Notes: a model not told the origin generated them from the sequence alone. A stretch of 64,000 bases of DNA from an uncultured Anaeromyxobacteraceae bacterium (GCA_964470365.1 CAYYCO010000002.1:76044-140043), one strand, 5' to 3'; shown: positions 23,601 through 38,402, counted from the first letter of the stretch. Program-made: numbers and translations.

Positions 23601-26243
23601 GGCGCTGGGGTCGGTCACGCCGAGCGGCGACCACACGATGTAGCCGTCCTCCAGGAGCACCGTGAGATCGAATTTGGTCAGCGATTCAAACGGGGCGTGC
23701 AGTCTGTATTTGCCGGTCTTGTCGTATTCGTCCTGGGAAACGAGCCCCATGCGGTACGAACCCGCGTAGTCCTCGTTACAGGACGGCTTCACGTCAACGC
23801 CGCAGTAGTAGTAACCGTCGACCGCCATTGCGGGCACGCCGCAGACAAGCTGGACCATGCCGGGGAGCGTATCGCAGGAGCCGCCCTGACCGACGTCCGG
23901 CGCGCCGGCCGTGAACGGGGGCTGGTCGAGCGGTTCGCCGTCCAGGCGGGACAGGGGGAATCCGAAGAACTGCCAGGTCGAGTTGCTGGCGTCCGGATCC
24001 CGGTAGCACATGAAGATCCTGACCCAGTCGCAGGAGCCGACCGTCAGGGCGGGCATTTCCTTTTCGGCCGGCGACTGGGCGATCAGCGTGGCGTTGTATA
24101 CGCTGCACGCACTGCCGCCCTGCGGGCATCGGTAAGCCTTGGCCTTGATGAATTGGTTGGTCACGCCGGCCGCGACCTTGACGTCGTCGATTTCCCAGGA
24201 ATTCATCATGTATGTCGAACCCGGGGCGGTGTCGAGCAGGAAGCCGATTTTGAGCGACGGCGAATATTTGATCGCTTCGGGCAGTTCGGCTGTCGCGAGC
24301 TGATATTCCAGGTCATGGTTTACCGTGGTTTCCCAGACGACGGCGCCGTTGAGGAAATCGTTGTTGTCGGTCGCGACGACCTTCAGTTTGATGGACTGGC
24401 CGGGAGCCGCGTGTTTGTATGACATGCGCCACTGCAGGGTCGTCTTGCCGAGGTTGTTGAACATGTCGCGTGCGGCGGTGGTGCCGTCAAGCTGCGGCGA
24501 TATGGCGACCGTCTTGACGACGATCGTCGGCAGCGGGTCCCACGTGAACGCCAGGTGCGTGTCGGGACCGAGGTCACCGACGGCCGAATTCAGTTTCCAG
24601 TGATCGACTGAAGCGGTCTGGAAGTCGCGGGTCGTCCAGCCGATCTCGGGCAGGACGGAGACGCCGTCGAACGGTTCGACGTAGGGCAGTTCAAGGGTGC
24701 AAGACGCATCGTAAGGATGCTGACAGGTGAATCTGCCGGAAATCGGTTCCAGCAGGCAGTTTTCGGCGGTGCAGGGGTTGCCGTCGTCGGCGTGTTCCTT
24801 GCACCATTCTTTGTCCCAGCAGCAGTCCGTGGTCGACCACGAATGGCGGCAGCTGCTGAGGAAGCAGGTATCGGTCGTGCAGGGATCGTTGTCTTCGCAG
24901 TCGGCGGCCGTCACGCAGCAGTCGGCCTGCATTTTTTCCCTGGTGCAGACATGGCCCCAGCACATGTCGTAGGTGCACGCGTTTCCGTCGTCGCAGTCGG
25001 AATTCAGGTTGCAGCAGTTTTCGAGGGGTGCGCCCGCCGAGCAGATGTTGGTGCCCATGTCGCAGAAGTCGGGGGTGCAGAATTTCTTGTCGTCGCACTG
25101 GGCGTTGGCGAAAGCGGTACGTTCCAGTTCGCTTGCCCACGGCAGGCCCGTCTTCGGGTTCTTGTCCGCCGGCGCGTAGCAGCAGCCCGGGTTGATGTTG
25201 TACGCCGAGTAGACGCAGCGGTTGCTGGTGCAGTAGTCGGCGTTGCACGGGTTGCCGTCGAAGCATTCCGAAACGTCGTGGCAGCACATCGGGATTTTGT
25301 CGTTGGTGCACCTGAGCGTGTTCAGGTTGCAGACGTCCTGCGTGCAGACCTCGCTGTCGTTGCAGTCGGCATTCACGAGGCAGCATTCGGGCTGGCGCGG
25401 ATTGGTGCATACGCCGGCCGTGCAGGCGTCGAACGTGCAGACGTTCCCGTCGTAGCAGGCCGCATGGTTCTGTTCGACATACCCGTCGTTCCTGGCGCCT
25501 GGCGTACCCTTGTCGCCGGTCCCGAACACCTTGGTGGAAACCACGAAATTGGAGTCTTCCCAGGACGTCGGGTCATTCGGGAGTTCCGGTATGACCATCG
25601 CGGCGTTGTCGAGATACGGGTGCTTGAGTCCGACCGATGCCGCGGCCGGCGCCGAAGTCGTGAAGCCCGCATCCGGGCCGTAGACGACGCGGTCGATTTC
25701 AGCGGCCTGCGGGTCCAGGAGGAGGACCGAGTCGCCGCCGTTGACGAGCGCGAAGTTGGTCAGCTGGTAGGCACAGGTAACGCCGCCGTTCAGGCTGGCA
25801 TTACTGTTGCGGCAAAGCACCAGGTACCCCCCTGAAGGAATGACGAGGCTGCCGACGATCTGATGGATGCCGGGCCCGTCTTCGGCGATGTACCAGCCGG
25901 CCAGGTCGACCGCGGCTGCCGTCGGGTTGTACAGCTCTATCCATTCGCCGTTTGCGTCACCGACGGCAACCGGGTCGATCATCAGTTCGTTGATGACGAC
26001 GTGGTTGACCGTCGGAGTGCACGTCTTGGCATCGCGGGTCTGGAGTTCCCGCGTGGCAACGGCCGATTCGACTGGTTCCTCTTCCACGGCGGCATCGACC
26101 GCCGCAACGTCCGTGACGACCTGGTCGGACGCCGTCAGGGCACCCGCAAGGGCGAGGTTGTCATGGCCGCCTTCAGAGCAACCGGCGATGGCCCCGGCCG
26201 AAAAAACCGCCAGAACCGCAAGACAGAAAGGATGGAGCTTCAT
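17637..26243 (-). CDS. giant cysteine-rich surface lipoprotein of about 2,868 aa (lamin-tail domain, MXAN-type Cys-rich repeats, three proprotein-convertase P-domain-like modules, PPC-like domain)
   Basis: Start set at MKLHPF... (SD AAGGAGG 5 nt upstream; lipobox IAGC). LTD motif VVINELMIDP...GEWIELYNP...DLAGWYI. Dozens of C-x-D-x-N-x-C-T-x-D-x-C repeats. Three GxWTLxVxD...G.L..W/F segments and a PPC-like DxxDxYxF...YYVGV segment. About 230 Cys by hand count. Confidence 0.85.
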   Translation of the reverse strand: MKLHPFCLAVLAVFSAGAIAGCSEGGHDNLALAGALTASDQVVTDVAAVDAAVEEEPVESAVATRELQTRDAKTCTPTVNHVVINELMIDPVAVGDANGEWIELYNPTAAAVDLAGWYIAEDGPGIHQIVGSLVIPSGGYLVLCRNSNASLNGGVTCAYQLTNFALVNGGDSVLLLDPQAAEIDRVVYGPDAGFTTSAPAAASVGLKHPYLDNAAMVIPELPNDPTSWEDSNFVVSTKVFGTGDKGTPGARNDGYVEQNHAACYDGNVCTFDACTAGVCTNPRQPECCLVNADCNDSEVCTQDVCNLNTLRCTNDKIPMCCHDVSECFDGNPCNADYCTSNRCVYSAYNINPGCCYAPADKNPKTGLPWASELERTAFANAQCDDKKFCTPDFCDMGTNICSAGAPLENCCNLNSDCDDGNACTYDMCWGHVCTREKMQADCCVTAADCEDNDPCTTDTCFLSSCRHSWSTTDCCWDKEWCKEHADDGNPCTAENCLLEPISGRFTCQHPYDASCTLELPYVEPFDGVSVLPEIGWTTRDFQTASVDHWKLNSAVGDLGPDTHLAFTWDPLPTIVVKTVAISPQLDGTTAARDMFNNLGKTTLQWRMSYKHAAPGQSIKLKVVATDNNDFLNGAVVWETTVNHDLEYQLATAELPEAIKYSPSLKIGFLLDTAPGSTYMMNSWEIDDVKVAAGVTNQFIKAKAYRCPQGGSACSVYNATLIAQSPAEKEMPALTVGSCDWVRIFMCYRDPDASNSTWQFFGFPLSRLDGEPLDQPPFTAGAPDVGQGGSCDTLPGMVQLVCGVPAMAVDGYYYCGVDVKPSCNEDYAGSYRMGLVSQDEYDKTGKYRLHAPFESLTKFDLTVLLEDGYIVWSPLGVTDPSAVAIKQAIIDSGRKAQIITDLSMVPDLTKYTGVFAVLGVKGRYAPLSPMNAARLRLYLDQGGKVYLEGGDFFYTTSGSQASTVLHPYFKTEATSDGGVMRMAGPVSGYNFLHGASFNVSQTGTVNAWIDKLRHVSEGGGREIVRNAAVNDPFAVAVSYEEQVGVDVDNNPLYRRTIGSSLPFGALGYNGAMSTNQLMTMYLNFLEYGYPSCTVVENCQDFEVCTTDYCNVGECINLQVNPCVPCENDKFRPDGTPSCGINQACDTSLGYCVDIPGFRFDADCQADFGAAPVMASCAVNVPANGVVANSNFKVGLQHEYRGDVKLTVTSPAGTSAILRNSSFADPKTSIYETYDIGVPSFQPVTAFDGEGSVGTWTVVAEDTDPSFSDGTFEEWHFFAELADVSCSDADECPASLCQVASCPAGVCVFTPRGCDDGLTCTVDSCDPATGECVNEVIQACGGPCSTHDDCFRNEVCLIGGTEDRVCDPAVDIDPGTGESLCVCRTIEGTPYEYDWVNDLPADIPDNDPAGLTKVLKINANGYVSKVKVKIRTIHPAAGDLRAELCHEDVCVRLRDAKGGTNAGFHDVYDWDPVAGPGQMLDFKRLPIAGDWTLKVWDNVTGMTGQLVYFTIYVVSAGCFRNAECDDGNLCTLDSCTNVSAGGVCVHSLKQCRPLDNPCMENTCQPDTGECVETAATNGSPCDDGSFCTEDDFCQAGSCMAGDPMDCGYLSGTCTVGTCSEDLDQCTIVQAADETPCNDGELCNGGDFCQGGLCMPGPTLLCGCPSGLDSACGDDGNKCNGTTWVCNDDRMCELADAPVVCAEPGVACRSNVCDPFDGVCKMRNALNYTPCEDGMFCTIQDYCLVGEDSISACTGGGPRDCAVTDIDCTDGHCASCVEGYCDEGADACSEWKRDNGTPCEFDGLGCSNDVCNNGMCGFGTMVDCSDTGDDCNEGICQNIEWGDYLCVRGAFPDGTECTDEPNPCTDDVCLAGYCQHERKTNCNGQCGGEHPFDAGDDDCGFEDSCVGGIDGYPRGGCNPTCPDGMCYKASSGTVDLAINERVNGNGCTNVMVPVTTGFAYVLNAELKMKISHEAIGELQIDVIDPQGARHRVWNNLGAENDGFANTFDVSFPITYPGNETSGQPMCALKGEAMDGIWTVQVCDGATGNSGTLHEFSLYMKGSDDPTLNLGSRCETPIDLGNQDQNPAINVDGTLACAINSVNDSGCGGLDGPDRIYKFSLGVAKRVTVRLLPVPGNRLILFLKGADGATCAAGSIRCAESTDTEPAEIDVQLQPGEYYVGVDTNSGMFAYTPFRFELRVKTLVENGGDCTDLVLGEQHLDCVSLHCQNGFCCGSGDCCPAAAWDVPQDGEDPNQLWADPDWMTTDLVCNRVGAGVYSEDPICNDPDTTDPLNPISFCQGKRWDARCVNFECVKTEVPDDTACDDTVESDRCGYYYSMFCGDYGPFDSVLVPQVQSKPDCLTYCTSNTDCDANAHCDPVVATDVDPDPSLRAMFCVADLPNGAASNEDSDCISGHSKNGFCCSEGDCCPTADAAGAAECPAIYTTPASCDTVADPITGDLVCEGHRKDPICVDNKCGDQLVRDDCRCGGSIADNCGAYIPARCPVSSFSTPAVCPGAGWLAPWDGGGTECLTSCLTAGVPDDSKCDDDARCDWDEDNPTNAICIPLVPNGGPCENDFECLNQQWLPGGIGHCQNDFCCDFGDCCARNTDCPTVDPREGYWAPANCDDWKTCQGTEQRATCVDARCGSEYLPEDSDCVYDPGHISDDCGYYLPVFCNGGIDQIDPPCPTTCYDGGTKIENDDVCDPNAHCDPVAPTYSNAVCMANLANNQPCDENSDCVSGFCQTGYCCDVGGCCAGCKVTNATPSFGNAGYPNPPATGPSGPGPLSTESGFIQFAPTVPTASRPATGGRTVGTSLGTFEGVTVVTSCWNFVKDQSETDVDCGGRVCKDCAAGKHCVYGTDCVSGTCLNGLCQ

Positions 26244-26462
26244 GGCGCCTCCTTGACCGGTGATAGCACCCGTCACGCAAACATTGCACACCTGTGGCAA
26301 CACCATCGACGCAATTATCGACAAAAGCCCAACAAATCCGGGCAGTCTGCCCATATTGCCGGCGGTTCCGCCACAGCGGAATAAAACACCGGGTTTTCTC
26401 GACAGCAGGTTTCGTGCCAATGCAGTCTCCTTCCGGTGCAATTCTCGATCGTGCGGAGGGCG

Positions 26463-27040: not shown

Positions 27041-27850
27041 TCACTTCCTTTCCGCGACGTCCGACGGCTTCATCGGCACCACGAACAGCTTCGTATTGAC
27101 CTCGTTCCTTCCGACGTAAAAATCACAGCCGAAGACCTTTTTCAGGACGGGGTAAAGCATTACCTCGTCGGGCCTGCCCGCGGCCACGACGCGACCGCCG
27201 TTCACAAGCACGAGCCTGTCGCAGACCAGCAGCGCCACATTCAGGTCGTGGATGGCGGCGACGACGCAGACTCCCTCCGACGATGCACGGGCGGCAAGCC
27301 CGTCGAGCATCCGGACGGAGTGGGATGCGTCCAGGTTGGCGGTCGGTTCGTCCAGCAGCAGCAGACGCGAGCCCTGGGCAACCGCCCTTGCAAGCAGCAC
27401 GCGCCTCTGTTCGCCGGCCGACAGTTCCATGTACTGCCTGGCGGCAAAATCCGAAACGTCGGCGAATTCCATCGCTTCCCGGACCGCGGCACGGTCCCCG
27501 GACGACTCGAAGACACCCCTGAGGTGGCTGATTCTACCAAGCGCGACCAGTTCGGCGACCGTCAGCGGAAAGCCCACGTGAAGGCTCGACGGCAGGAACG
27601 CGGCAAGCCTGGCCGCCTGCCTGCGCGGGATCGTTGCGGGATCCCTGCCGAAAACCCTGACCGAACCACCGCATGGACTGATGAGGCCGGCGGCAAGCCT
27701 GAGTATCGTCGATTTCCCGGCCCCGTTCGGCCCGAGGATGCCGGTGAAGGTCCCCGGCTCGAAGATTCCCGATACGCCGTCGGCGGCAGGCACCGGGGCA
27801 CCTGGCCATCTGAAAGACACGTCTTCCATCACGAGCGGGATCGGCGTCAT
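27041..27850 (-). CDS. btuD: ABC transporter ATP-binding protein (BtuD/FecE family)
   Basis: Walker A GPNGAGKST. ABC signature LSAGEQRR. Walker B LLLLDEPTANLD. In an operon with FecCD permease and a class-III substrate-binding protein, downstream of a cobalamin riboswitch. Confidence 0.85.
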   Translation of the reverse strand: MTPIPLVMEDVSFRWPGAPVPAADGVSGIFEPGTFTGILGPNGAGKSTILRLAAGLISPCGGSVRVFGRDPATIPRRQAARLAAFLPSSLHVGFPLTVAELVALGRISHLRGVFESSGDRAAVREAMEFADVSDFAARQYMELSAGEQRRVLLARAVAQGSRLLLLDEPTANLDASHSVRMLDGLAARASSEGVCVVAAIHDLNVALLVCDRLVLVNGGRVVAAGRPDEVMLYPVLKKVFGCDFYVGRNEVNTKLFVVPMKPSDVAERK

Positions 27851-28854
27851 CGGTTACCCCTCTTGAGCAGCCAGACGAACACCGGTCCGCCCACCAGCGC
27901 GGTAAGGACGCCCACGGGGGCCTCCGTCTGGAAGACCGGGAAAAGCACCCTGGTGGCGACGTCGGCAAGCACGAGGAAGGCCGCGCCCGCAAGCATCGAG
28001 GCCGGAACGGTGAACCTGTGATCCGAACCGACCAGCGCCCGGACCCCGTGGGGCACGATCAGGCCGACGAACCCGATCATCCCCGACACGGAAACCGCCG
28101 AGGCCACCAGCAGCGACCCCGCCGCCAGCACGATGCGCGTGGTCCGCTGCGTGTCGACGCCGACCGAGGCCGCGTCTTCCTCGCCGACGGTCAGAGCGTT
28201 CAGATCCGGCGACAGCCTGAACAGGACCAGACCGCCGGCCATGGTCATCACGACGGTCAGGATGACCGCCCATGGCCCGCGCACGTCGGACGAAAGGGTT
28301 CCCATGAGCCACATCAGCATTTCCTGGGCCTTCTGGGCGCGCACCACCGATTTCAGAAACATGATCACAGCCGACGCGAAGGTGTTGAATATCACGCCGA
28401 CCAGCAGCACCTCCCAGACGTTCAGACGCCCCCGCGAATCCCTCGACAGCCAGGACGTGCAGGCGATGGCCAGGAGCCCGAATACGAAGGCGAAAATGGA
28501 AACGCCGGCCTGCCCGAGAAACGCGGCGACCGGCAGGATCATGGCGAGGGTGCCGCCGACCGCCGCACCGCCCGCGACACCGATGACGTACGGATCGGCC
28601 AGAGGGTTCTTGAGGATTGCCTGGAAAGCCAGTCCGGCCGCGGCCAGCGACGCCCCGACCGAACCGCCTATGACGGTGCGGGGAAGTCTTTCACGCAGGA
28701 GGATGGCCCGATCGACCGGGGAGTCGCCGGTAATCGCGCCCAAAAAATCCATCCTGGTCGCGCCAAGCAGGATGGACAGCAGCGCCGCGCCGGCGGCGGC
28801 CAGCGCCATGATGACCAGAATTGCGGCCCTTCCGGCTTTCCCGCCCGCCATCAA
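27847..28854 (-). CDS. btuC: FecCD-family ABC permease (BtuC-like)
   Basis: About 9-10 TM helices. FecCD family pattern. 4-nt overlaps with the flanking genes. Confidence 0.85.
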   Translation of the reverse strand: MMAGGKAGRAAILVIMALAAAGAALLSILLGATRMDFLGAITGDSPVDRAILLRERLPRTVIGGSVGASLAAAGLAFQAILKNPLADPYVIGVAGGAAVGGTLAMILPVAAFLGQAGVSIFAFVFGLLAIACTSWLSRDSRGRLNVWEVLLVGVIFNTFASAVIMFLKSVVRAQKAQEMLMWLMGTLSSDVRGPWAVILTVVMTMAGGLVLFRLSPDLNALTVGEEDAASVGVDTQRTTRIVLAAGSLLVASAVSVSGMIGFVGLIVPHGVRALVGSDHRFTVPASMLAGAAFLVLADVATRVLFPVFQTEAPVGVLTALVGGPVFVWLLKRGNR

Positions 28855-29699
28855 TCATCCCCCTGCGGGGCAAGCGCCCTGATTTTTTCCGCCAGGGCCG
28901 CAGCCGCGACGACGGCGCCGGGTCCCGGAAGAAGTATCCCGTCGTCCGGGATGTGAATCACGGGGGCTTTCACGCCCGCATCCGACAGAATCGCCGCGGA
29001 CGGCTCGCCCCCCGCAATCCCGTCGATTATCAAGTCCGGCCCGGACTTTATCACCTGTTCAAGCGACCATGTGGGAAATCCGGTAGAGGACGGCCCGACC
29101 ACGTTGTCGAGCCCCATGGCCGACATGAGCTGGCCCTGGAAGGACGATGGTCCCGCGACCACCAGCGGCCTGGTTCCAACCACGAACATGGCCTTCATTC
29201 CCGGCATCCCGTTTCCCAGTTCGGACAGGCCACGATCGAATTCCGCCACCAGGCTCGAAGCCTCTGCGGGACGCCCCACCGCCGCGCCGATTGCTTTGAT
29301 TCCCGTCCGCACGTCATCGAAATCCTCAAACGCGAGCGGCAGAAACCGGACCCCGGCCGGAGCGAGGATCTCGACCAGCCTGCCTTTCAGTACGGCCGGT
29401 GAGCCGATGACGATATCCGGCCTGGCCGCCGCCACCGCCTCCACCGAGACGTCGAGGATGCCGCCGACGCGCGGTATGGCGCGGGCGGCCGCCGGTCTTT
29501 CGCAGTATCGCGTGGCCCCGACAATCTGTCCCCCGGCGCCGAGCTCGAACAGGATCAGCGTGACCCCGGGCACGAGCGAAACCACCCGGGCTTCGCGCCC
29601 CCTGCCATGTGTAACCGGCCCCGTGCCGCCGCTTCCGCACGCAGCCAGGGTCAGGGCGCACAGCACCATCATCGCGCCTGCGGTCCAGCGCATGCTCAC
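28851..29699 (-). CDS. btuF: periplasmic cobalamin/iron-complex substrate-binding lipoprotein (BtuF-like, Peripla_BP_2)
   Basis: Lipobox LAAC. RVVSLVPGVTLILFELGAGGQIVGAT...PDIVIG pattern of class-III SBPs. Confidence 0.75.
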   Translation of the reverse strand: MSMRWTAGAMMVLCALTLAACGSGGTGPVTHGRGREARVVSLVPGVTLILFELGAGGQIVGATRYCERPAAARAIPRVGGILDVSVEAVAAARPDIVIGSPAVLKGRLVEILAPAGVRFLPLAFEDFDDVRTGIKAIGAAVGRPAEASSLVAEFDRGLSELGNGMPGMKAMFVVGTRPLVVAGPSSFQGQLMSAMGLDNVVGPSSTGFPTWSLEQVIKSGPDLIIDGIAGGEPSAAILSDAGVKAPVIHIPDDGILLPGPGAVVAAAALAEKIRALAPQGDD

Positions 29700-30889
29700 T
29701 CGACCTCCAGCAGTGAACCGTCGCCGGTTTCGAGCCTGACGACGCTGTCGTTCTTCAGGCAGGTCACCCAGACCGTGACGGCAGCTTCATCAGGCCCCAC
29801 TGCGAGATCCCAGGGATTGCAGTTCACCGGCAGGCCGAAATCCCGCCGCGCGCCCGTCGCGGTGTCGATGACGGCCAGGCTGTTGTCGCCGGAATTGACG
29901 ACGTACAGGGATCCATACAGAAGTTTCATCCTGTTCGGCGAAAGCAGGCCGCCGGCCAGTTTCCTGACCCCCGCCGCTGGTCCGGCCCCGGTGTCGAAAT
30001 CGATTACCTGGTTCGCAAGGTTCAGCAGGACATAGGTGCGCGTCGCGTCCTGCTCGATGTCGATGATGCCGTCCATCATCCCCTGCTGACCGACGACCGA
30101 CGGCGCCCACGGGACGTCGACCCGGATCCGCGCGGCCGGGTCGAAAAGCAGCAGCGTGTCGTCGTTGAACAGGCCCAGGGTCATGAGTCCGCCGGGTCCC
30201 GGCCCCACGACCGTAGTGTTCTGTGTGGTCTCAACCGACAGATTCACGGGTTCCGAACCATCCCGCAGAACGGTGCCGGAAACGAGGTCTACCAGGAACA
30301 GCGCCGCCGTGGTGCCGCTGGCGATCCACGCCAGATCACCATCGATAAACATCCCGGACGGGTACCCGACCAGCGACCCGGGCGCCGTGGCAATCGGGAT
30401 CGCGACCGACACGGCGACCGCGGAATCGATACCCTCGAGCTCGATTCCCGCAAGACCGCCGGAGGTACTGGACACCACCGTCGAGTCGGCCTGGTTCCAC
30501 TCCGTGGTTCCGGAGCAGAGTACCCACGCCATATCGCCAGAAACGACAACCTCCTGCGGATTCTCGAACGGAAGCGGAATGATGTTGACCACCGCGCCAG
30601 TCTCCCGGTCGATCACCGTCAGGAAACCCTTTCCGTACGAAAGGCGGGATCCCTGATACGCAAAGTTTGCGTTGGTAACCAGAACCCTGTTATTCCATAT
30701 TGTTATGCCTTCAGGCGCCGAGAAGCTGCGATCCGGGGGAATGCCTGGCAGGTCGACTTCGACGACGTCTCCCGAATCGGCCCCGACCCAGGGCTCCGTG
30801 GCACACCCGGCGAGGCACGCCAGTCCGGCGGCCAGGAAGAACACCGGGATCCGCCCGCATTGAAGGGAATGAACGATGCGCGTCATCAT
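29696..30889 (-). CDS. beta-propeller surface lipoprotein encoded inside the B12 uptake operon (BtuG-like candidate)
   Basis: Lipobox LAGC. Repeated roughly 40-residue beta-blade segments (YVTN-type). Sits between the btuB and btuF genes. Confidence 0.5.
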   Translation of the reverse strand: MMTRIVHSLQCGRIPVFFLAAGLACLAGCATEPWVGADSGDVVEVDLPGIPPDRSFSAPEGITIWNNRVLVTNANFAYQGSRLSYGKGFLTVIDRETGAVVNIIPLPFENPQEVVVSGDMAWVLCSGTTEWNQADSTVVSSTSGGLAGIELEGIDSAVAVSVAIPIATAPGSLVGYPSGMFIDGDLAWIASGTTAALFLVDLVSGTVLRDGSEPVNLSVETTQNTTVVGPGPGGLMTLGLFNDDTLLLFDPAARIRVDVPWAPSVVGQQGMMDGIIDIEQDATRTYVLLNLANQVIDFDTGAGPAAGVRKLAGGLLSPNRMKLLYGSLYVVNSGDNSLAVIDTATGARRDFGLPVNCNPWDLAVGPDEAAVTVWVTCLKNDSVVRLETGDGSLLEVE

Positions 30890-32799
30890 AATTCAACCAC
30901 CACCGACCCGAACGCCGAGAAGCCCGGGAGAGGCTGCTGCAGGGAGTCCACGGAATCGGATTTGTCCGTGATGTTCAACAAGTCCAGCGCCAGCTTCAGG
31001 AATGGCTTCGGCCTGACCTCCAGCCTGACGTCAAGGCGGAACCTGCCCTCCTCGCCGACCGACTCGAATGCGTCCAGGAAGAAACCGGACTGCCACGACG
31101 GCATCAGGGCCAGCCTGAAGGGGCCGCCCGAAAAAGCCAGTTCGCCGGCAATCACGTGTTCCGGCCTGGCAGGCATGGCGTTTCCGGTGGCCGTGACCTC
31201 CGAAAACAGCCAGGTGTATGCGAGTCCTGCCTTGAACCAGCGCCACTGGACCGAACCCGACGCCTCGACGCCCCGCAGCACGGCCGAACCCGAATTCGCG
31301 GCCCGGATGACGAAGGCGGAAACCGGCTGGAAGGTGATCAGGTTGAAACCGTAATTCTCGAAGTACGCTGCCTTCACGTTGAACCAGCGGCCCCGCCCCA
31401 CCTCGATCCCGACGTCCCAGGCGATCGAGTCCTCCGGCTCCAGCGCAGGATTTCCCTGGACGAACCCGGTGTCGAAATACAGCTCTTCCAGCGTGGGCAG
31501 GCGGAATGACCTCCCGGCGTTCGCGGACAGCCTCACCAGCGGGTGCGGTTCGTACCATACGCCCAGCGCGGGCACGGCCCGGAAGCCAGAGCCGGAATCA
31601 TATTCAAGCCTTACATCGGCACTGACCTGCCACGGATCGGCGGGCGCGCCAGCGACGAGACCGACCGTCCCGGCGAAGGCGCCACGGCCGGGAGAGTATG
31701 GCGGCTGGCCGACCCTCCTGACCCGTCCGCCCTCGTAACCGCCGTCAATCCCGAGTCGGAGCGCCAGCCGCTCGATCGGTGCGTCGATCGTCGAAAAACC
31801 GGCGCCGATGCCGCCGGAAACCAGTCCGGTGTCCTGCGGCGGTCCCATGTAGGGAACCGGATCGCTGAAATTGAACATCAGGAACCTGCCCCACACCCAG
31901 GCCGAAGTCGCGCCGCGCAGGCCGAAAAGACGCGGGCCGCGCCAGCCGACCCTGGCAAGCACCCTGGTGTCGTCCTGGACGGCCGTGGCCGACGGGAACT
32001 GGTCCATTCCGGCCACCTCGCGGTCGTCGCGCCAGAATTCGACCAGCGCATCGACGCGGTGATCCGCGCCCGCTTCCGACTCGACCTTGATCAACGCCTC
32101 GCAGGCCGTCGACGCGTTGTGTTCCCTGTCGCGCCCGACCCCGTTCGAATCCGTGTATCTGAAACCGCCGCCCGAATGGAGCACGCCGGCCGACGCCATC
32201 ACGCCGGTGGCGCCGGCGGCGGCATCGAACAGGTGTGAATGCGAAGCCTTCAGCTTGAACGTGCCCGAGGAACCGCCCGAGACGACGGCACGCGTCAGGG
32301 TGCCCGACTCCATGACCGACGGCGTCCGGGCATCCACTGCCCCGCCTGCCGCGTCGTTTCCCCTGGCCGCGCCCTGTCCGCCGCGCACGATGTCGATGGA
32401 TCCCAGGGAAACCAGACCGAGCGAATTGAGGTCCGCCCCTCCCATGAACGGGGAGTTGAGCGGGATTCCGTCAAGCGTCACGAGCGTCGACCTCGGGTCG
32501 GATCCGCGGATGGAAACGGAAACCGACTGGCCGGCGCCGCCGCTCTCGCGCACAAGCACTGCGGGAACGGCCCTGACGGCGGCGGCAGGCCCGGCCGGCG
32601 AGTCGACCGCCCCGCCACCTTCGATTGTGGACGCCTGGCTGCTTTCCCTGGCCGTCGGATCGGCCGGGACCGGGTCGCCGGTCACGTCGATTTCGGGGAC
32701 CTCCACGGCGGTGGCGGCATCCTGCGCCCGGGAAGGAAGCGGGCAGGCCGAAGACAGCAGCAGAAGAAACAGAAAGGAAGGTGGTAACCGCGCAGACAT
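30886..32799 (-). CDS. btuB: TonB-dependent outer-membrane receptor (BtuB-like)
   Basis: Signal peptide. Plug-domain motifs (VTLDGIPLNSPFMGGADLNSL...IDIVRGGQGAARGN). Large beta-barrel region. First gene after the cobalamin riboswitch. Confidence 0.8.
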   Translation of the reverse strand: MSARLPPSFLFLLLLSSACPLPSRAQDAATAVEVPEIDVTGDPVPADPTARESSQASTIEGGGAVDSPAGPAAAVRAVPAVLVRESGGAGQSVSVSIRGSDPRSTLVTLDGIPLNSPFMGGADLNSLGLVSLGSIDIVRGGQGAARGNDAAGGAVDARTPSVMESGTLTRAVVSGGSSGTFKLKASHSHLFDAAAGATGVMASAGVLHSGGGFRYTDSNGVGRDREHNASTACEALIKVESEAGADHRVDALVEFWRDDREVAGMDQFPSATAVQDDTRVLARVGWRGPRLFGLRGATSAWVWGRFLMFNFSDPVPYMGPPQDTGLVSGGIGAGFSTIDAPIERLALRLGIDGGYEGGRVRRVGQPPYSPGRGAFAGTVGLVAGAPADPWQVSADVRLEYDSGSGFRAVPALGVWYEPHPLVRLSANAGRSFRLPTLEELYFDTGFVQGNPALEPEDSIAWDVGIEVGRGRWFNVKAAYFENYGFNLITFQPVSAFVIRAANSGSAVLRGVEASGSVQWRWFKAGLAYTWLFSEVTATGNAMPARPEHVIAGELAFSGGPFRLALMPSWQSGFFLDAFESVGEEGRFRLDVRLEVRPKPFLKLALDLLNITDKSDSVDSLQQPLPGFSAFGSVVVEL

Positions 32800-32854
32800 G
32801 CCCCTGTCCCCGAGGAGTTCAGTCCATCTGTTCCGGGCAGGTCTCCTGGCTTCG

Positions 32855-33005
32855 GGGGATCGGCCGTGGCCGAAGGTCTTTCCGCCTTCCCGGCAGGTGC
32901 CAGTGGCATACCGGAAAGACCCCGGAAATCATTCCCCCCCCGTTACAGTGGCGGGACCGCGCGGGAATCACACCCGCTTCCCTCTCCGGGACGCCGTCGT
33001 GTCCA
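32855..33005 (-). promoter_or_regulatory. cobalamin (AdoCbl) riboswitch in the btuB leader
   Basis: Minus-strand RNA ...GAGAGGGAAGCGGGUGUGAUUCCCGCGCGGUCCCGCCACUGUAACGG...GCCACUGGCACCUGCCGGGAAGGCGG... Carries the B12-box and conserved GGGAA, GGUGnnAUUCC, CCCGCcACUGU and GCCACUG elements of RF00174. Confidence 0.8.
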
Positions 33006-33095
33006 CCCGGAAAGAACGCGCAATCAATCGCACGACCGCGACGATTCGTCAACCTTGAACGAAGGGAACGCGGAAGGGGGGAGGAACGGGTGGTG

Positions 33096-33932
33096 TCATG
33101 CCGGGCAGGGGCACTTCTGGGCGCACGCCTGGGTGACGCTGCCGGGTTCGCCGGCGGCGGGGCAGTTCAGCAGTTCGCACTTGTTCCGGTAGTCCTTGCC
33201 GTCGGAACCGCATACGGCCGCATCCGGAACGGCTTCGCACGGAACGCAGATCGGTTCGGCGCATTCGCCGAAATATCCGATGAGGTCGTCGAGGACGGCG
33301 GCGCAATGGTTTTTCGCCTTCAGGTCGCAGAGATCCGTGTATTCGGTTTCGCCGTCGATTCCGCAGACGACGCCGCAGGATTCGATCGGCTGGACCTGCG
33401 CCTCGCATTCGTCGGCGAGAATGCACGGACATTCGTCGCAACTGGTCCTGCGGAGCAGGAAGTTGGTGTCGCCGGAAGTGTCGCAGTCGATTTCGCCACC
33501 GCAGCCGGGGCAGTCCGGCGCGTCGGCGCACAGTTCGCAGGCGGCGCAGTTGGCGCTTGCGTACGTCACCTCGTCAACGCCGCAGACCGGTTCATTGACG
33601 TTCTGGTCGCAGGGACACATCGGCTTGACGAATTCGTCTTCAACGATGTCGACCACGTCCGGGGGAACGTCCGGCGCCACATCCGGAACGTTGACATCGG
33701 CCACGTCGGGCGTCACGTTGGTGTCCACACCCTCGTCGGGCGTCACGTTCGTGTCCACCGGAACGTCCTGGACGATGTCGGGGGTCGCCGTGTCGCGGCC
33801 GGTGTCGGGAGTGATCGTGTCTTCCTGCCCCGGGTCGTTCACGATGTCCTGCGGCGGACCGTCATCCCCGCACGCGATAGCGAAGGTCGCTGCGGCCGCC
33901 ATTATTAAGAACAGGAATGATTTTCTGGACAT
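33096..33932 (-). CDS. lipoprotein with three Kazal-type serine-protease-inhibitor domains
   Basis: Start at MSRKSF (SD GGGGGA). Lipobox IACG. Acidic Pro/Val/Asp linker. Three Kazal cores (PVCGVDEVTYASANCAAC; VCGIDGETEYTDLCDLKAKNHC; AVCGSDGKDYRNKCELLNC). Confidence 0.7.
   Translation of the reverse strand: MSRKSFLFLIMAAAATFAIACGDDGPPQDIVNDPGQEDTITPDTGRDTATPDIVQDVPVDTNVTPDEGVDTNVTPDVADVNVPDVAPDVPPDVVDIVEDEFVKPMCPCDQNVNEPVCGVDEVTYASANCAACELCADAPDCPGCGGEIDCDTSGDTNFLLRRTSCDECPCILADECEAQVQPIESCGVVCGIDGETEYTDLCDLKAKNHCAAVLDDLIGYFGECAEPICVPCEAVPDAAVCGSDGKDYRNKCELLNCPAAGEPGSVTQACAQKCPCPA
33706..33765. repeat. imperfect 30-nt tandem duplication inside the Kazal-lipoprotein linker
   Basis: tcgggcgtcacgttggtgtccacaccc / tcgggcgtcacgttcgtgtccaccgga. 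Encodes a duplicated ...GVDTNVTPDE... segment. Confidence 0.5.
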
Positions 33933-34031
33933 CTGATCCCCCTGAAGCATCCGTTAAGTCGGACGACCGCCCCCGGCACAGCCACGGGCCAAACGTATAA
34001 TGCCGTCGAAAAGTTTATTCTAATCGGGCTT

Positions 34032-34979
34032 TCAGGGCAAGAACACTCGAACGGTGGTCTGAAGATAGAAACCGCCCGCGTCCCACACGTCGTGCGCATA
34101 ACCGACATCGACCGCCACTATCTTTGAAACGTAACCGATTCCCAGGGAGACGCGCATTTCCTCGACCGCCTTGCCGTCGGTGCCGAAATGGCCCACCCGG
34201 TCCCAGTTGAAGCCCGCCCGGATGGCGACCACGTTGCCGGCGATGACCTCAAGGCCGCCCATCAGACTGGGAGTGGCGGTCCCGAATGTTGAGAAGTCGA
34301 TGTCGCAGTCGAGGCCGAAATTGACGATCGAATACGAAAAGCCTATGCCCACGCCCAGCTTCCTGGGAGCGAGCGTCCAGGTCCGGCGTCCGAATCCCGT
34401 CGTATTCTTGATTTCGACCTCGGCGAGGTTCTTGTCCTGGGCAAGGTTCTGGATCAGGTTCTGACCGGTCACGCCGATGTAGAACACGTTCATGATTCCC
34501 AGAACCAGCCCGATATCCATGTCGGTGTACCAGGTGGAATCGGTGACGTCCGAGCGCAGGTTCATCACCCGCATGGTCAGCCCGGCGCCGAAGAATATCT
34601 TGTCGTTCGCGTATTTGGTGGCAAGAGCGGATCTGATGTCGTGCGTCATCGTGTCGTCGCCGAGATCGGCATAACCGAACGTATACGACAGGCCGCCCGA
34701 AACCCATTTGTTGGTCGTGGAGTCGACGAACGAAGCCGAAGCCTGGTGCCACTGGGTCCAGTGGGAATAGGCATATCCCATGTTCACCGAATACTGGTTG
34801 ATCTGGGGTATCGACGCGGGATTGAAGAAAAGTCCGTCCGCACCCATGCCCACCGCCCGGACGGCGTCGCCCATTGCCAGCGCCCTCGCCGTCGAACCGT
34901 CGGTTCTGGCGGACGCGGGGCCTGGAAGAAGCATGAAGGCCGCCAGCAAACATGCGGAAACACTGATAACCGGCTTCAT
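34032..34979 (-). CDS. putative outer-membrane beta-barrel protein
   Basis: Start at MKPVISVSACLLAAFMLLPGPASA (cleavable signal). Alternating amphipathic Gly/aromatic-rich strands throughout. Confidence 0.5.
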   Translation of the reverse strand: MKPVISVSACLLAAFMLLPGPASARTDGSTARALAMGDAVRAVGMGADGLFFNPASIPQINQYSVNMGYAYSHWTQWHQASASFVDSTTNKWVSGGLSYTFGYADLGDDTMTHDIRSALATKYANDKIFFGAGLTMRVMNLRSDVTDSTWYTDMDIGLVLGIMNVFYIGVTGQNLIQNLAQDKNLAEVEIKNTTGFGRRTWTLAPRKLGVGIGFSYSIVNFGLDCDIDFSTFGTATPSLMGGLEVIAGNVVAIRAGFNWDRVGHFGTDGKAVEEMRVSLGIGYVSKIVAVDVGYAHDVWDAGGFYLQTTVRVFLP

Positions 34980-35920: not shown

Positions 35921-37096
35921 TCAGACCAGAATCAGTTCTTCCTGCTGCGGGCCGCTCACCTCTACGCTGCCGTCCTTCTTGATGAACACGTCGATTTCGG
36001 TCCTGACCGCCATGCGGCCGGGCAGGTAGATCCCGGGCTCGACCGAAAAGCAGATACACGGAACCAGGCGGCGGAGATCCCTGGTTTCAAGGTTGTCGAT
36101 GTTCACGCCGTTGCCGTGGACGTTCACGCCGATCGAATGGCCTGTCCGGTGGATGAAAAATTCACCGTAACCGGCCGCCTGCACGACCGACCTGCACGCA
36201 TCGTCAACCTCGTATCCGAAGCACTGCTGGCGACGCGCGAACCGTTCGCGGACGAATTCGACCGCGGCCTTCCTGGCGTCGCGCACGACACGGAAGATCC
36301 TTTCATATTCTTCCGGCGGGTTGGTTCCGACGAAGCCGACCCACGTGATGTCGTAGAAGATCGCGCCCGGCCGGGCCAGCTTGGCCCAGAGGTCGATAAG
36401 GACAGTGTCGCCATCGCGGATTGCGACCGTGTTCGACGGCGTCGGTTCGAAATGCGGGTCGGAAGGATGGCCGTTGACGCCGACGATCGGGAATTCGCCC
36501 ATGCAGTCGAGTCCGTCCTCGCCGAAACGGCGGATGATGAACCGCTGTACGTCGTATTCGGTGATTTCACGGCCGTTATCGATCGAATCGCGGATGAGCG
36601 CGAAGGCCTCGTCCTTGATGGCGTGAATCAGCCGGCCCGCCTCGACGTGGCTTTCATACCCGCCGTCGTCGATGATGGCCTCGAAGATCTGTACCAGGTC
36701 GGCCGAAGAACCCACGCGGGCGCCGGCGCCCCTGACCAGATCCAGCATGCCCGCGTCGACCAGGCTGACGTAGGGTATTGCATCGTCCGGGGAGTACTGC
36801 ATCGCAACAAACCTGCCGTGGACCAGTTTTTCCAGTTCCTCGGCCAGGTCGCGCCATGACAGGTAGAAACGTTTTTCCCCGGGAAGCGCGTCGAGACGGG
36901 AAGGTTCGACCCTGCTGACGAGGCGCACGGGATCGCCGGACGCAGGCACCAGGTAGAACCAGCGCCGGGAAGTAAATTTTTCGAAGTCCAGACCGAGGAT
37001 GCGGTAGGCAATCGCGTCCCTGTTGTGGAAATCGCAGAACAGCCAGCCGTCGAACCCGGCATCCCTGACCGCCTTCTGAATGACCTTGACGTCCAT
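35921..37096 (-). CDS. M24-family Xaa-Pro aminopeptidase (creatinase-N + pita-bread domain)
   Basis: Start at MDVKVIQ (SD GGAGGG). Metal-ligand motifs HRTGHSIGVNVHG and SVEPGIY. Confidence 0.8.
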   Translation of the reverse strand: MDVKVIQKAVRDAGFDGWLFCDFHNRDAIAYRILGLDFEKFTSRRWFYLVPASGDPVRLVSRVEPSRLDALPGEKRFYLSWRDLAEELEKLVHGRFVAMQYSPDDAIPYVSLVDAGMLDLVRGAGARVGSSADLVQIFEAIIDDGGYESHVEAGRLIHAIKDEAFALIRDSIDNGREITEYDVQRFIIRRFGEDGLDCMGEFPIVGVNGHPSDPHFEPTPSNTVAIRDGDTVLIDLWAKLARPGAIFYDITWVGFVGTNPPEEYERIFRVVRDARKAAVEFVRERFARRQQCFGYEVDDACRSVVQAAGYGEFFIHRTGHSIGVNVHGNGVNIDNLETRDLRRLVPCICFSVEPGIYLPGRMAVRTEIDVFIKKDGSVEVSGPQQEELILV

Positions 37097-37140
37097 ATTG
37101 CCCTCCATTTCCCGTGTGCTGCTCGAAAACAGGTCGAGAA

Positions 37141-37554
37141 TTATGCCTCCGCCCGCCCCGGCGCACAAGCGGCGGGTGGCCCGTCGACCTCGGCCACGTG
37201 CCCCTGGACAGCCAGGGTGCGCACGAAAACGGCAACCCTTTCAAGGGCCATCGACTGATCGGGGTTCGCGGCGGCGAACCTTTCGGCCACGTCGGCCACG
37301 GTCGATTCGCCGTCCAGAGCGGCCCATACGAACGACCCGAACGCGTCGAGCCTGATTCTGAAAAACGGATTTTTCAGCCGCGGCATCAGGATGCGGGACA
37401 GCAGCGCGCCGTCGAACCGGGGGACGAGTATTGCCTGCAGGCCGTCATCGACGGTTTCCGACGACCTCACACGGACGAAGCGCCGCCACATGATGTCTTC
37501 GACCACTACGCCCAGCTTCGTGGATGACGCGCCCGCGCCGCCGCCGTCTGTCAT
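37141..37554 (-). CDS. PqqD-family protein (RiPP recognition element-like)
   Basis: Internal ATG (MTDGG...; SD AGGGGGA). FGSFVWAALDGESTVADVAERFAAANPDQSMALERVAVFVRTLAVQGHV matches the PqqD WxxLDGxxTVxxI...D.l.Fl..L...Gli pattern. Confidence 0.5.
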   Translation of the reverse strand: MTDGGGAGASSTKLGVVVEDIMWRRFVRVRSSETVDDGLQAILVPRFDGALLSRILMPRLKNPFFRIRLDAFGSFVWAALDGESTVADVAERFAAANPDQSMALERVAVFVRTLAVQGHVAEVDGPPAACAPGRAEA

Positions 37555-37577
37555 CGGTTCCCCCTGCGTCCGACAGG

Positions 37578-38402
37578 TCACACGCCCGCAAGTTCCCGAA
37601 CGAACCTGCAGAGTGCGCCCGGTTCCATCGCGAAGCCCTTTTCCGAAAGGCCGTGGTATTCGACCCAGCCGGCGCGGGGTATCCATTTTTCGACCGGCGC
37701 GAATCCCGGCAGCCGCTGGCCATGCCAGGTGCCCTGCACCGAAACCCTGACCTGAAGCCCGTACCGCGGCGGAAAAACCGTTGGATTCGTCGTTACCTCG
37801 ACGCGGGCCCCCTGCAGCCACCCGGACGCTGAACCGCACTCGAAAAGCGTTGGCGGTTCGAACACGTCAAGTCCCAGGGATTCCAGGGCCCTGATTTCCG
37901 TCAGAAGATTTTCGCGCGGACGAAAGACGAAGCGATACCAGAATGAACCGTGCGCAGGCAGTACGACGAGGCTCGAGCCGAAGAAGGCAAATGCCGCGAG
38001 CGCCGACGCGAAAAGGGATATGAGAGGAACGGGCGCCAGGAAGCTGAGATCGATCTTGCGCTCGGCCATCAGCATCACGACGATGAGCAGTCCGGTCTGG
38101 ACCGTCGCCAGGCAACCTGCCCACCCGCGGAACCTGTCTCCGTGGATGAGGATTCCGGCGATCGAAATCACGGCCAGCATGTGGGGAAAGGCGAGCCAGG
38201 CGAAACGGTCCAGCGCGATCGATATGCCGCTGGTTTCGACCCACGAGTGCCCCCAGTCGACGAACAGCAGGGCCACGAATACAAGCTGGACCGCCACCGC
38301 GATCAGCAGGAGCCAGTCTGCCGCGCGACGACCATAGCGGATGGCCCAGACAAGGGCCGCTGTCCCGAGGACGAGGCAGGTGATTCCGAAAAGCAGTTCC
38401 AA
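37578..38402 (-). CDS. hypothetical membrane protein (about 5 TM helices + cytoplasmic C-terminal domain)
   Basis: Hydrophobic helices throughout the N-terminal 170 aa. No recognisable motif. Confidence 0.45.
   Translation of the reverse strand: MELLFGITCLVLGTAALVWAIRYGRRAADWLLLIAVAVQLVFVALLFVDWGHSWVETSGISIALDRFAWLAFPHMLAVISIAGILIHGDRFRGWAGCLATVQTGLLIVVMLMAERKIDLSFLAPVPLISLFASALAAFAFFGSSLVVLPAHGSFWYRFVFRPRENLLTEIRALESLGLDVFEPPTLFECGSASGWLQGARVEVTTNPTVFPPRYGLQVRVSVQGTWHGQRLPGFAPVEKWIPRAGWVEYHGLSEKGFAMEPGALCRFVRELAGV

What the first reader, a model, noticed from the sequence alone, without database searches (positions are those of the whole stretch)
33096..33932. Lipoprotein carrying three Kazal-type protease-inhibitor domains
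Kazal domains are mainly eukaryotic. Here three canonical Kazal cores are strung behind a lipobox and an acidic repetitive linker. The linker contains a recent 30-nt tandem duplication (33706-33765). The protein would be anchored on the cell surface, and the gene sits just upstream of the B12 locus. A protective inhibitor against its own or a competitor's secreted serine proteases is a plausible function, but there is no direct evidence for it.
Basis: partly seen in the sequence, partly recalled or inferred. Interest (0 to 1): 0.5.

Follow-up and report, generated by a model that had tools for sequence, protein, structure and literature searches.

The report
Myxobacterial lipoprotein with Kazal-fold domains
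This gene encodes a lipid-anchored, cysteine-rich envelope protein from an uncultured myxobacterium, with one clear and two divergent Kazal (protease-inhibitor-type) domains; it is real and belongs to a small family always encoded next to a FadL/PorV-like outer-membrane barrel, but it is a fairly ordinary domain finding and inhibitor activity is unproven.

Summary
The ORF is real: 33096-33932, minus strand, 278 aa. It has a signal peptide with a lipobox (…FAIA|C21-G), an 82-residue acidic Asp/Val/Pro/Thr tether with a lineage-specific 30-nt tandem duplication, and a 175-residue core with 26 conserved cysteines.

Pfam Kazal_2 and Kazal_1 pass their thresholds for the whole protein. Taken alone, only domain 3 is a canonical (non-classical type) Kazal. 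Domains 1 and 2 are divergent Kazal homologues with extra disulfide cysteines.

An AF2 model (pLDDT 82.6) matches only Kazal and follistatin structures.

The family is small: about 21 clusters at 50% identity among 1.84 billion representatives. All come from uncultured Myxococcota MAGs or metagenomes.

Base composition, synteny and depth of divergence argue against recent transfer from eukaryotes.

The B12 locus downstream has its own cobalamin riboswitch and is not functionally tied to this gene. The conserved partner is instead the upstream gene, a 14-stranded FadL/PorV-like barrel. This pair survives in an unrelated neighbourhood.

Protease inhibition is plausible but unproven. The putative P1 residues (Gln, Ala, Ala) and acidic P2 residues are atypical. 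The Pro-Arg/Lys reactive site found in long-form relatives lies in a domain this protein lacks.

Verdict: new member of a known kind, modest interest.

The parts
33096..33932 (-). CDS of the Kazal-domain lipoprotein (278 aa plus stop codon)
   Evidence: ORF list and translation. Homologues all start MSRK. The public gene call P0001 starts 10 codons later and truncates the signal peptide.
33937..33942 (-). Shine-Dalgarno-like GGGGGA, 4 nt upstream of the ATG at 33932
   Evidence: Read directly from the sequence.
33870..33932 (-). Signal peptide with lipobox (res 1-21: MSRKSFLFLIMAAAATFAIA|C)
   Evidence: Fits the PROSITE-type lipobox rule, with a positive n-region and a hydrophobic h-region. 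Cys21-Gly22 are invariant in 16 homologues.
33624..33869 (-). Acidic Asp/Val/Pro/Thr-rich tether (res 22-103)
   Evidence: Composition and pI. Its length and sequence vary among homologues.
33701..33760 (-). 30-nt tandem duplication inside the tether (VDTNVTPDEG / VDTNVTPDVA)
   Evidence: the repeat finder family D1: 28 nt, 93% identity, spacing 30. Absent from homologues.
33432..33623 (-). Domain 1 (res 104-167): divergent Kazal with 10 Cys, including an invariant C-x2-C-x2-C-x5-C-x2-C-x5-C stretch (C129-C150)
   Evidence: Kazal_2 20.5 bits over profile positions 3-35. hhalign 94.6% to a eukaryotic Kazal profile, covering C1-C5. Invariant Cys columns.
33255..33431 (-). Domain 2 (res 168-226): divergent Kazal with 8 Cys and an enlarged C2-C3 loop holding an extra Cys
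   Evidence: Kazal_2 12.6 bits, E 0.15, profile positions 14-48. hhalign 93.9% to a eukaryotic Kazal profile and 85% to D3.
33099..33254 (-). Domain 3 (res 227-278): canonical non-classical Kazal (C229, C232, C241, C252, C257, C274) plus C270 and C276 in a CxxxCPC tail
   Evidence: Kazal_2 23.8 bits and Kazal_1 22.8 bits, both above cut-off. hhalign 98.3%, E 2.6e-14. PDB sequence hits to rhodniin, infestin and ovomucoid.
34032..34979 (-). Partner gene: 315-aa FadL/PorV-like 14-stranded outer-membrane beta-barrel, 99 nt upstream on the same strand
32819..33025 (-). Cobalamin riboswitch; marks the start of the separate downstream B12-uptake unit and is not part of the Kazal module
   Evidence: Rfam RF00174, 105.3 bits, E 2.7e-26.

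Best explanation
The gene encodes an exported lipoprotein, most likely in the outer membrane, of an uncultured Myxococcota bacterium. It carries three disulfide-rich Kazal-fold modules on an ~80-residue acidic flexible tether. It is probably co-transcribed with the upstream FadL/PorV-like outer-membrane barrel.

The most likely activity is tight, non-catalytic binding of proteins through the exposed Kazal loops. The specific proposal is substrate-like ('standard mechanism') inhibition or trapping of serine proteases at the cell envelope. This would protect envelope proteins, perhaps including the partner barrel, from the cell's own or foreign secreted proteases.

Shown:
- the ORF, lipobox and tether;
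- Kazal homology and fold;
- the small Myxococcota-specific family;
- the conserved pairing with the barrel;
- independence from the B12 operon.

Inferred:
- outer-membrane location;
- co-transcription with the barrel gene;
- protease inhibition;
- the protective role.
For: Kazal homology and fold:
- Kazal_2 and Kazal_1 score above their cut-offs.
- D3 is a full-length Kazal with the invariant spacer Asn250.
- AF2 model: pLDDT 82.6 with three hairpin-helix-strand units.

Reactive-site signals:
- Long-form relatives carry a further domain with a classic Cys-Pro-Arg/Lys site; P1 is basic (Arg/Lys/His) in 7 of 9. The family therefore probably contains real trypsin-type inhibitor domains.
- In the 7 closest homologues the D1 loop C106-G118 is invariant except at the positions corresponding to P1 and P1'. 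Hypervariable contact residues of this kind are known from Kazal inhibitors (own knowledge, Laskowski's ovomucoid work).
- The gene is the fastest-evolving of its region: 60% identity against 75-92% for its neighbours.

Export:
- The lipobox Cys is invariant and the mature protein has an even number of cysteines (26).
- Position +2 is Gly, not Lys, and position +7 is Pro, not Ala. The M. xanthus inner-membrane and matrix sorting signals are therefore absent (PMC3222651).

Partner barrel:
- The barrel-lipoprotein pair is kept 55-100 nt apart in every syntenic locus and also in a quite different neighbourhood, L018.
Against: - No inhibition assay exists for any bacterial Kazal protein in the searched literature.
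- Putative P1 residues here are Gln110, Ala178 and Ala234. P2 is acidic in all three domains (Asp109, Glu177, Glu233) rather than the usual Thr or Pro.
- Across the family P1 is often Gly, Asp, Glu, Thr or Pro, which bind poorly in ovomucoid P1-variant studies (own knowledge).
- The D3 C2-C3 loop varies from 8 to 17 residues, and the D2 loop is enlarged with an extra Cys.
- The window protein lacks the domain with the Pro-Arg/Lys site.
- No S1 or S8 catalytic motif occurs in any plausible ORF of the 64-kb window, so no target is in sight.
- Many eukaryotic Kazal/FS domains (follistatin, agrin, SPARC) are not inhibitors, and follistatin is the top Foldseek hit.
Confidence: 0.45

Rival explanations
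1. The protein is a non-inhibitory binding module. Like follistatin, agrin or SPARC FS/Kazal domains, the three modules would bind a non-protease ligand or act as an adhesin or cap. It would work as the dedicated lipoprotein partner of the FadL/PorV-like barrel, for example by capturing or handing over a substrate, or by being displayed or held by the barrel.
For: - The barrel-lipoprotein cassette is conserved in different neighbourhoods.
- The barrel resembles PorV (a cargo-binding shuttle) and the FadL-like BamG as closely as it resembles FadL.
- The best-conserved features are the extra cysteines of D1 (C129-C150 stretch, Gly146), not the reactive loops.
- P1 and P2 are atypical and the loops carry indels.
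- The top Foldseek hits are follistatin.
Against: - Long-form relatives have a textbook Pro-Arg/Lys reactive site.
- P1/P1' hypervariability within an otherwise invariant D1 loop looks inhibitor-like.
- No ligand or precedent is known for a FadL-family barrel with a Kazal partner.
- The most divergent members of each family (P0016 and L019) occur unpaired.
Confidence: 0.35
2. The protein is an accessory of vitamin B12 uptake. It would be a surface lipoprotein that captures cobalamin for the adjacent TonB-dependent receptor, functionally like Bacteroides BtuG.
For: - The gene lies immediately upstream of a riboswitch-controlled operon of TonB receptor, BtuF-like, FecCD and ABC genes.
- This adjacency is kept in most related loci.
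Against: - The riboswitch lies downstream of the Kazal gene, so the gene is outside the regulated unit.
- L014 and L015 have lost the receptor and riboswitch but keep the Kazal gene.
- L018 keeps the barrel-Kazal pair with no B12 genes nearby.
- The whole 20-kb region is syntenic, so adjacency carries little information.
- The Kazal fold has no known corrinoid binding.
Confidence: 0.04
3. The protein is a cysteine-rich metal-binding or redox protein. The invariant CxxC…CxxC stretch in D1 (C132-x2-C135-x5-C141-x2-C144) would coordinate a metal rather than form disulfides.
For: - Two CxxC knuckles are invariant in all 15 full-length members.
Against: - Those hits are at noise level.
- The protein is exported to an oxidising compartment, and the cysteine count is even.
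- C132 aligns with Kazal C5.
- The confident AF2 model folds as Kazal units.
Confidence: 0.05
4. The gene was recently acquired from a eukaryote, or it is eukaryotic contamination in the assembly.
For: Kazal domains are mostly eukaryotic, and the nearest named non-family hits are metazoan.
Against: - GC is 0.64 and GC3 0.80, the same as the neighbours.
- The gene has a bacterial lipobox and ribosome-binding site.
- It sits in conserved synteny in at least six distinct Myxococcota lineages that have diverged to 32-60% identity.
- Metazoan hits are only about 30% identical, and they score through summing many domains.
Confidence: 0.02

Closest known systems
Non-classical Kazal inhibitors of blood-feeding insects (rhodniin, infestin, dipetalin; MEROPS family I1)
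   Different: - This protein is bacterial and lipid-anchored, with a long acidic tether.
- P2 is acidic and P1 is Gln or Ala, not the Pro/Phe-Arg/His seen in the insect inhibitors.
- D3 has an extra cysteine pair (CxxxCPC tail).
- D1 and D2 have extra disulfide cysteines and altered spacing.
- Inhibition is not shown.
Follistatin / FS-domain proteins (follistatin, FSTL3, agrin, SPARC)
   Same: Both are strings of Kazal-like modules that carry more cysteines than the classic six. Follistatin is the top Foldseek hit over about 220 alignment columns (5jhw_D, E 1.5e-4). These proteins show that Kazal folds can act as non-inhibitory binders.
   Different: - Global TM-scores are low (0.2), so the domain arrangement differs.
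- The extra cysteines here follow the helix in D1 and precede C3 in D2. They do not form an N-terminal EGF-like subdomain.
- No growth-factor partner exists in bacteria.
Oomycete extracellular Kazal-like inhibitors EPI1/EPI10 (Phytophthora infestans)
   Same: Both are microbial, secreted, multi-domain Kazal-like proteins with atypical cysteine patterns. EPI1 and EPI10 inhibit a foreign subtilase (cited in PMC9904509). They are a precedent for a protective, offensive extracellular role.
   Different: EPI1/EPI10 are eukaryotic and soluble and have a proven target (tomato P69B). The protein here is lipid-anchored with no known target.
Bacterial envelope protease inhibitors: ecotin, and the lipoprotein alpha-2-macroglobulin (own knowledge for the latter)
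   Same: The proposed role is the same, namely guarding the envelope against exogenous serine proteases. Bacterial alpha-2-macroglobulin is likewise a lipoprotein of a 'eukaryotic' inhibitor family. Ecotin is reviewed in PMC9904509.
   Different: The folds and mechanisms are unrelated. Both of those have biochemical proof, and this protein has none.
FadL / TodX / PorV family of 14-stranded outer-membrane barrels (for the partner gene)
   Different: - The partner is shorter: 315 aa against 345-445.
- It has no Pfam hit even at E 5.
- Its N-terminal segment is modelled with low confidence.
- A dedicated Kazal lipoprotein partner has not been described for this family.

Membership tests
Kazal domain (Pfam PF07648/PF00050; MEROPS I1) | Profile HMM score above the curated cut-off | tested here: met
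   Whole protein: Kazal_2 28.8 bits (cut-off 22.8) and Kazal_1 24.1 bits (cut-off 21). D3 alone scores 23.8 and 22.8 bits. D1 alone (20.5) and D2 alone (12.6) fall below the cut-off.
Kazal domain (Pfam PF07648/PF00050; MEROPS I1) | Six-cysteine framework with a C3-G-x-D-G-x-x-Y-x-N-x-C4 core | tested here: met
   D3 shows C229-x2-C232-x8-C241-GSDGKDYRNK-C252-x4-C257-x16-C274, aligned full-length to a eukaryotic Kazal profile (98.3%, E 2.6e-14). D1 matches C1-C5 only, and D2 matches C3, C4 and C6, with ambiguous C1, C2 and C5 and extra cysteines. The feature is therefore met for D3 and only partly met for D1 and D2.
Kazal domain (Pfam PF07648/PF00050; MEROPS I1) | Disulfide connectivity C1-C5, C2-C4, C3-C6 | not testable with these tools
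   The structure tool returns pLDDT and secondary structure but no coordinates. The connectivity is inferred only from the alignment and from close superposition on solved Kazals.
Kazal domain (Pfam PF07648/PF00050; MEROPS I1) | Fold: beta-hairpin, short alpha-helix, third strand | tested here: met
   [not shown]
Canonical (standard-mechanism) Kazal serine-protease inhibitor | Reactive-site loop C2-P2-P1-P1' of fixed length, with a protease-compatible P1 and the spacer Asn | tested here: inconclusive
   - The spacer Asn250 is invariant in D3; D2 has Asp and D1 has Ser/Asn at that place.
- P2-P1 is Asp-Gln in D1, Glu-Ala in D2 and Glu-Ala in D3.
- Family P1 residues are often Gly, Asp, Glu, Thr or Pro.
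- The D3 loop is 8-17 residues long, and the D2 loop is enlarged with an extra Cys.
- Only long-form relatives carry a Pro-Arg/Lys site, in a domain absent here.
Canonical (standard-mechanism) Kazal serine-protease inhibitor | Measured inhibition and reactive-site cleavage | not testable with these tools
   This needs biochemistry. No published assay of a bacterial Kazal protein was found.
Bacterial lipoprotein (Lgt/LspA substrate) | Positive n-region, hydrophobic h-region, and a lipobox [LVI..][ASTVI][GAS]-C with a conserved Cys | tested here: met
   The signal is MSRK-SFLFLIMAAAATF-AIA-C, and Cys21-Gly22 are invariant in 16 homologues. This was checked by rule, as no SignalP or LipoP tool is available.
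Bacterial lipoprotein (Lgt/LspA substrate) | Outer-membrane or surface location | not testable with these tools
   There is only indirect evidence: +2 is Gly and +7 is Pro, so the M. xanthus +2 Lys (inner membrane) and +7 Ala (matrix) signals are absent (PMC3222651). Surface exposure is unknown.
FadL/TodX/PorV outer-membrane barrel (partner gene 34032-34979) | 14-stranded barrel with an N-terminal hatch segment carrying an NPA-type motif | tested here: met
   [not shown]
Cobalamin riboswitch-controlled B12 uptake operon (as possible host unit of the gene) | The gene lies downstream of the riboswitch in the same transcription unit | tested here: not met
   The riboswitch at 32819-33025 (-) lies downstream of the Kazal stop codon at 33096. 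The pair persists without B12 genes.

The most novel reading that the evidence does not exclude
The FadL/PorV-like barrel and the tethered multi-Kazal lipoprotein form a previously undescribed two-component outer-membrane device in Myxococcota. One version is a barrel that displays or holds a surface-exposed protease-trapping 'fishing line'. Another is a Kazal-capped uptake channel. In both, fast-evolving reactive loops would track the proteases of competitors or prey.
Probability: 0.15. Interest if true: 0.6.

Novelty: new member of a known kind. Interest (0 to 1): 0.3.

Why it matters
No bacterial Kazal protein appears to have been characterised. A lipid-anchored one would be a convenient entry point to two questions. 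The first is whether bacteria use this 'eukaryotic' inhibitor fold for envelope defence. The second is what a FadL/PorV-type barrel does with a dedicated lipoprotein partner.

In practical terms, the public gene call for this protein starts 10 codons too late and hides its lipoprotein signal. As it stands, the finding is mainly a correct domain annotation in an uncultured lineage. It does not open a long-standing question.

Tried and rejected
- TRF at minimum score 30 did not report the 30-nt duplication. The repeat finder did report it.
- NCBIfam gave only a noise hit to KdpC, caused by the low-complexity linker (the same artefact appears).
- The search for related loci with the 16-sequence alignment failed for lack of conserved stretches. 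The 6-sequence alignment worked.
- Literature: six full-text searches for bacterial, myxobacterial or lipoprotein Kazal proteins found nothing relevant. The prokaryotic inhibitor review PMC2952067 is not held. The 'Kazal' hits in PMC13055281 are an author's name.
- A motif scan of all window ORFs of 150 aa or more for S1 and S8 catalytic motifs found none in plausible coding frames.
- The 2934-aa neighbour has P_proprotein domains but no peptidase domain. I therefore rejected it as a cognate protease.
- The afdb50 fold library was unavailable. This prevented a taxonomic survey of structurally similar bacterial proteins.
- I considered and rejected the B12 link and recent HGT.
- dN/dS was not attempted, because the closest homologue with DNA is only 60% identical, so synonymous sites are presumed saturated.
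- The partial gene downstream of the most divergent homologue (L016) is not the barrel.

Full report
**1. What is in the sequence**

The minus strand carries an ORF at 33096-33950. The biologically sensible start is ATG 33932, giving 278 aa. It is preceded by GGGGGA 4 nt upstream, and all close homologues begin MSRK. The public gene call (P0001, 268 aa) starts at Met11 and so cuts off the n-region of the signal peptide.

The N-terminus, MSRKSFLFLIMAAAATFAIA|C21-G, is a textbook lipoprotein signal. Cys21 and Gly22 are invariant in all 16 family members aligned.

Residues 22-103 form a tether with 23% Asp, 20% Val, 15% Pro and 11% Thr. Inside it, 33701-33728 and 33731-33758 are 93% identical at 30-nt spacing, encoding VDTNVTPDEG/VDTNVTPDVA. 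Homologues lack this duplication, and their tethers differ in length and sequence. It is therefore a lineage-specific expansion of a low-complexity spacer. TRF did not score it.

Residues 104-278 hold 26 cysteines. All 26 are invariant among the close homologues.

**2. Are there three Kazal domains?**

Pfam Kazal_2 (28.8 bits, cut-off 22.8, three stretches) and Kazal_1 (24.1 bits, cut-off 21) pass for the whole protein. Results for each domain scanned alone and compared with a profile of eukaryotic non-classical Kazal domains:

| Domain | Pfam Kazal_2 alone | hhalign to eukaryotic Kazal profile |
|---|---|---|
| D3 | 23.8 bits, full profile (also Kazal_1 22.8 bits) | 98.3%, E 2.6e-14, full length; C229, C232, C241, C252, C257 and C274 are C1-C6 |
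| D1 | 20.5 bits, profile positions 3-35 only | 94.6%, C1-C5 only |
| D2 | 12.6 bits (E 0.15) | 93.9%, from a putative C2 at Cys176 through C3, C4 and C6 |

D1 has ten cysteines, including an invariant C129-x2-C132-x2-C135-x5-C141-x2-C144-x5-C150 stretch. D2 has eight, with an enlarged C2-C3 loop that holds an extra Cys. D3 has eight, ending in a CxxxCPC tail.

An AF2 model of residues 100-278, built on a 15-sequence alignment, has mean pLDDT 82.6 and three hairpin-helix-strand units.
- Foldseek against the PDB finds follistatin over about 220 columns, the two-domain Kazal rhodniin (prob 1.0) and single Kazal inhibitors.

Conclusion: one canonical Kazal domain and two divergent Kazal homologues with extra disulfide cysteines. 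'Three canonical cores' overstates it.

**3. Who has it**

The word-indexed search of 5.8 billion proteins found only 6 relatives with the single sequence and 16 family members with the profile. The exhaustive HMM search of 1.84 billion 50%-identity representatives found 520 hits at E<=1e-3. About 21 of these match the whole profile from lipobox to D3.

The other top hits with names are metazoan agrin-like or dipetalogastin-like multi-Kazal proteins. They score by summing many domains.

Named family members and genome hits are MAGs labelled Myxococcota, 'uncultured Anaeromyxobacteraceae' or Deltaproteobacteria, one of them apparently, judging by its isolate name, from a sludge digester. One homologue is already auto-named 'Kazal-type serine protease inhibitor domain-containing protein'.

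Two architectures exist: a short form of about 280 aa with three domains, as here, and a long form of about 480-550 aa with about four more Kazal domains.

**4. Context**

Downstream on the same strand lie a cobalamin riboswitch (32819-33025, 105 bits) and an operon of TonB receptor, an unknown 397-aa protein, a BtuF-like binding protein, FecCD and ABC genes. The riboswitch separates that unit from the Kazal gene.

The whole region of about 20 kb is syntenic in relatives down to 32% Kazal identity, so adjacency by itself says little. Two observations break the tie:
- L014 and L015 have lost the riboswitch, the receptor and the 397-aa gene but keep the Kazal gene.
- In L018 the neighbourhood is entirely different (Crp regulator, CxxCxxCC protein, GH4). 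The Kazal family member there still sits 58 nt after a homologue of the window's upstream gene. The contig carrying P0194 also has a partly different left flank and keeps the pair.

The functional unit is therefore a FadL/PorV-like barrel plus the Kazal lipoprotein, not the B12 locus. Only the most divergent members of each family occur unpaired.

**5. Origin**

GC is 0.64 and GC3 is 0.80, matching the neighbours. The gene has bacterial translation and lipidation signals. It has diverged with its genomic background: 60, 56, 49, 45, 37 and 32% identity across loci whose neighbours diverge in parallel. Nothing points to recent acquisition from a eukaryote. An ancient transfer in either direction cannot be assessed with these tools.

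**6. Function**

Points in favour of a standard-mechanism inhibitor:
- The fold is that of Kazal inhibitors.
- The spacer Asn is invariant in D3.
- Long-form relatives carry a classic Cys-Pro-Arg/Lys site in their sixth domain. P1 is basic (Arg/Lys/His) in 7 of 9.
- In the seven closest homologues the D1 loop CPCD-x-x-VNEPVCG is invariant except at the P1 and P1' positions.
- The gene evolves faster than all its neighbours apart from the unknown 397-aa gene. Against L017 it is 60% identical (core 65%), compared with 90% for the barrel, 92% for GT2, 86% for M24 and 75% for the receptor.

Points against:
- P2 is acidic in all three domains.
- P1 is Gln, Ala and Ala here, and often Gly, Asp, Glu, Thr or Pro in relatives.
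- The D3 loop length varies from 8 to 17 residues, and the D2 loop is enlarged.
- This short form lacks the Pro-Arg/Lys domain.
- No serine-protease gene lies in the window.
- Many Kazal/FS domains are non-inhibitory binders (own knowledge).

Sorting: position +2 is Gly and +7 is Pro. This avoids the M. xanthus inner-membrane and matrix signals (PMC3222651), so the outer membrane is the default. Surface exposure is not demonstrable.

I put envelope-tethered protease inhibition at about 0.45. A non-inhibitory binding partner of the barrel gets about 0.35. The remaining alternatives are minor.

**7. Comparison and verdict**

The nearest known proteins are the non-classical Kazal inhibitors (rhodniin, infestin) for D3 and follistatin-type strings for the overall shape. 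Functional analogues are ecotin and bacterial lipoprotein alpha-2-macroglobulin. No paper in the searched library describes a bacterial Kazal protein.

The 'three canonical' claim, the surface claim and the B12 link are overstated or wrong. The conserved barrel partner is the one addition of note. Overall this is a new member of a known domain family in an uncultured lineage, and interest is modest at 0.3.

Noticed in passing
[not shown]
   Followed up: yes
window 32819-33025 (-): A full-length cobalamin riboswitch (RF00174, 105 bits) heads the operon of TonB receptor, unknown 397-aa protein, BtuF-like, FecCD and ABC genes at 27041-32799.
   Followed up: partly
window 29696-30889 (-): A 397-aa protein with no family hit (only a weak NHL repeat, E 0.01) sits between the B12 TonB receptor and the BtuF-like gene. 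It evolves as fast as the Kazal gene (49-60% identity). In L014/L015 it is lost together with the receptor and riboswitch. It may be a receptor-associated B12-capture protein.
   Followed up: no
window 17637-26441 (-): A giant 2934-aa ORF has a lamin-tail domain, two proprotein-convertase P-domains and Dictyostelium-type Cys repeats, but no detectable peptidase domain. It is conserved at the same position in all syntenic loci.
   Followed up: partly
window 33902 vs 33932 (-): The public gene call for this protein (P0001, 268 aa) starts at Met11. This removes the charged n-region, so automatic pipelines would miss the lipoprotein signal.
   Followed up: yes
long-form homologues P0005 and P0009-P0016; L018 5853-7358: Relatives of about 480-550 aa add about four further Kazal domains. 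The sixth has a classic C-P-R/K trypsin-type reactive site in most members. The window protein is the short form without it.
   Followed up: partly
L014 and L015 (9467-9523 in L014): In this lineage the riboswitch, the TonB receptor and the 397-aa gene are absent. The BtuF-like gene starts 55 nt after the Kazal gene, leaving a BtuFCD-like transporter with no detected riboswitch.
   Followed up: partly
window 37141-37839 (-) and 35921-37168 (-): A PqqD-like (RiPP-recognition-type) domain protein lies next to an M24 metallopeptidase. Both are conserved upstream in the syntenic loci. No link to the Kazal gene is evident.
   Followed up: no
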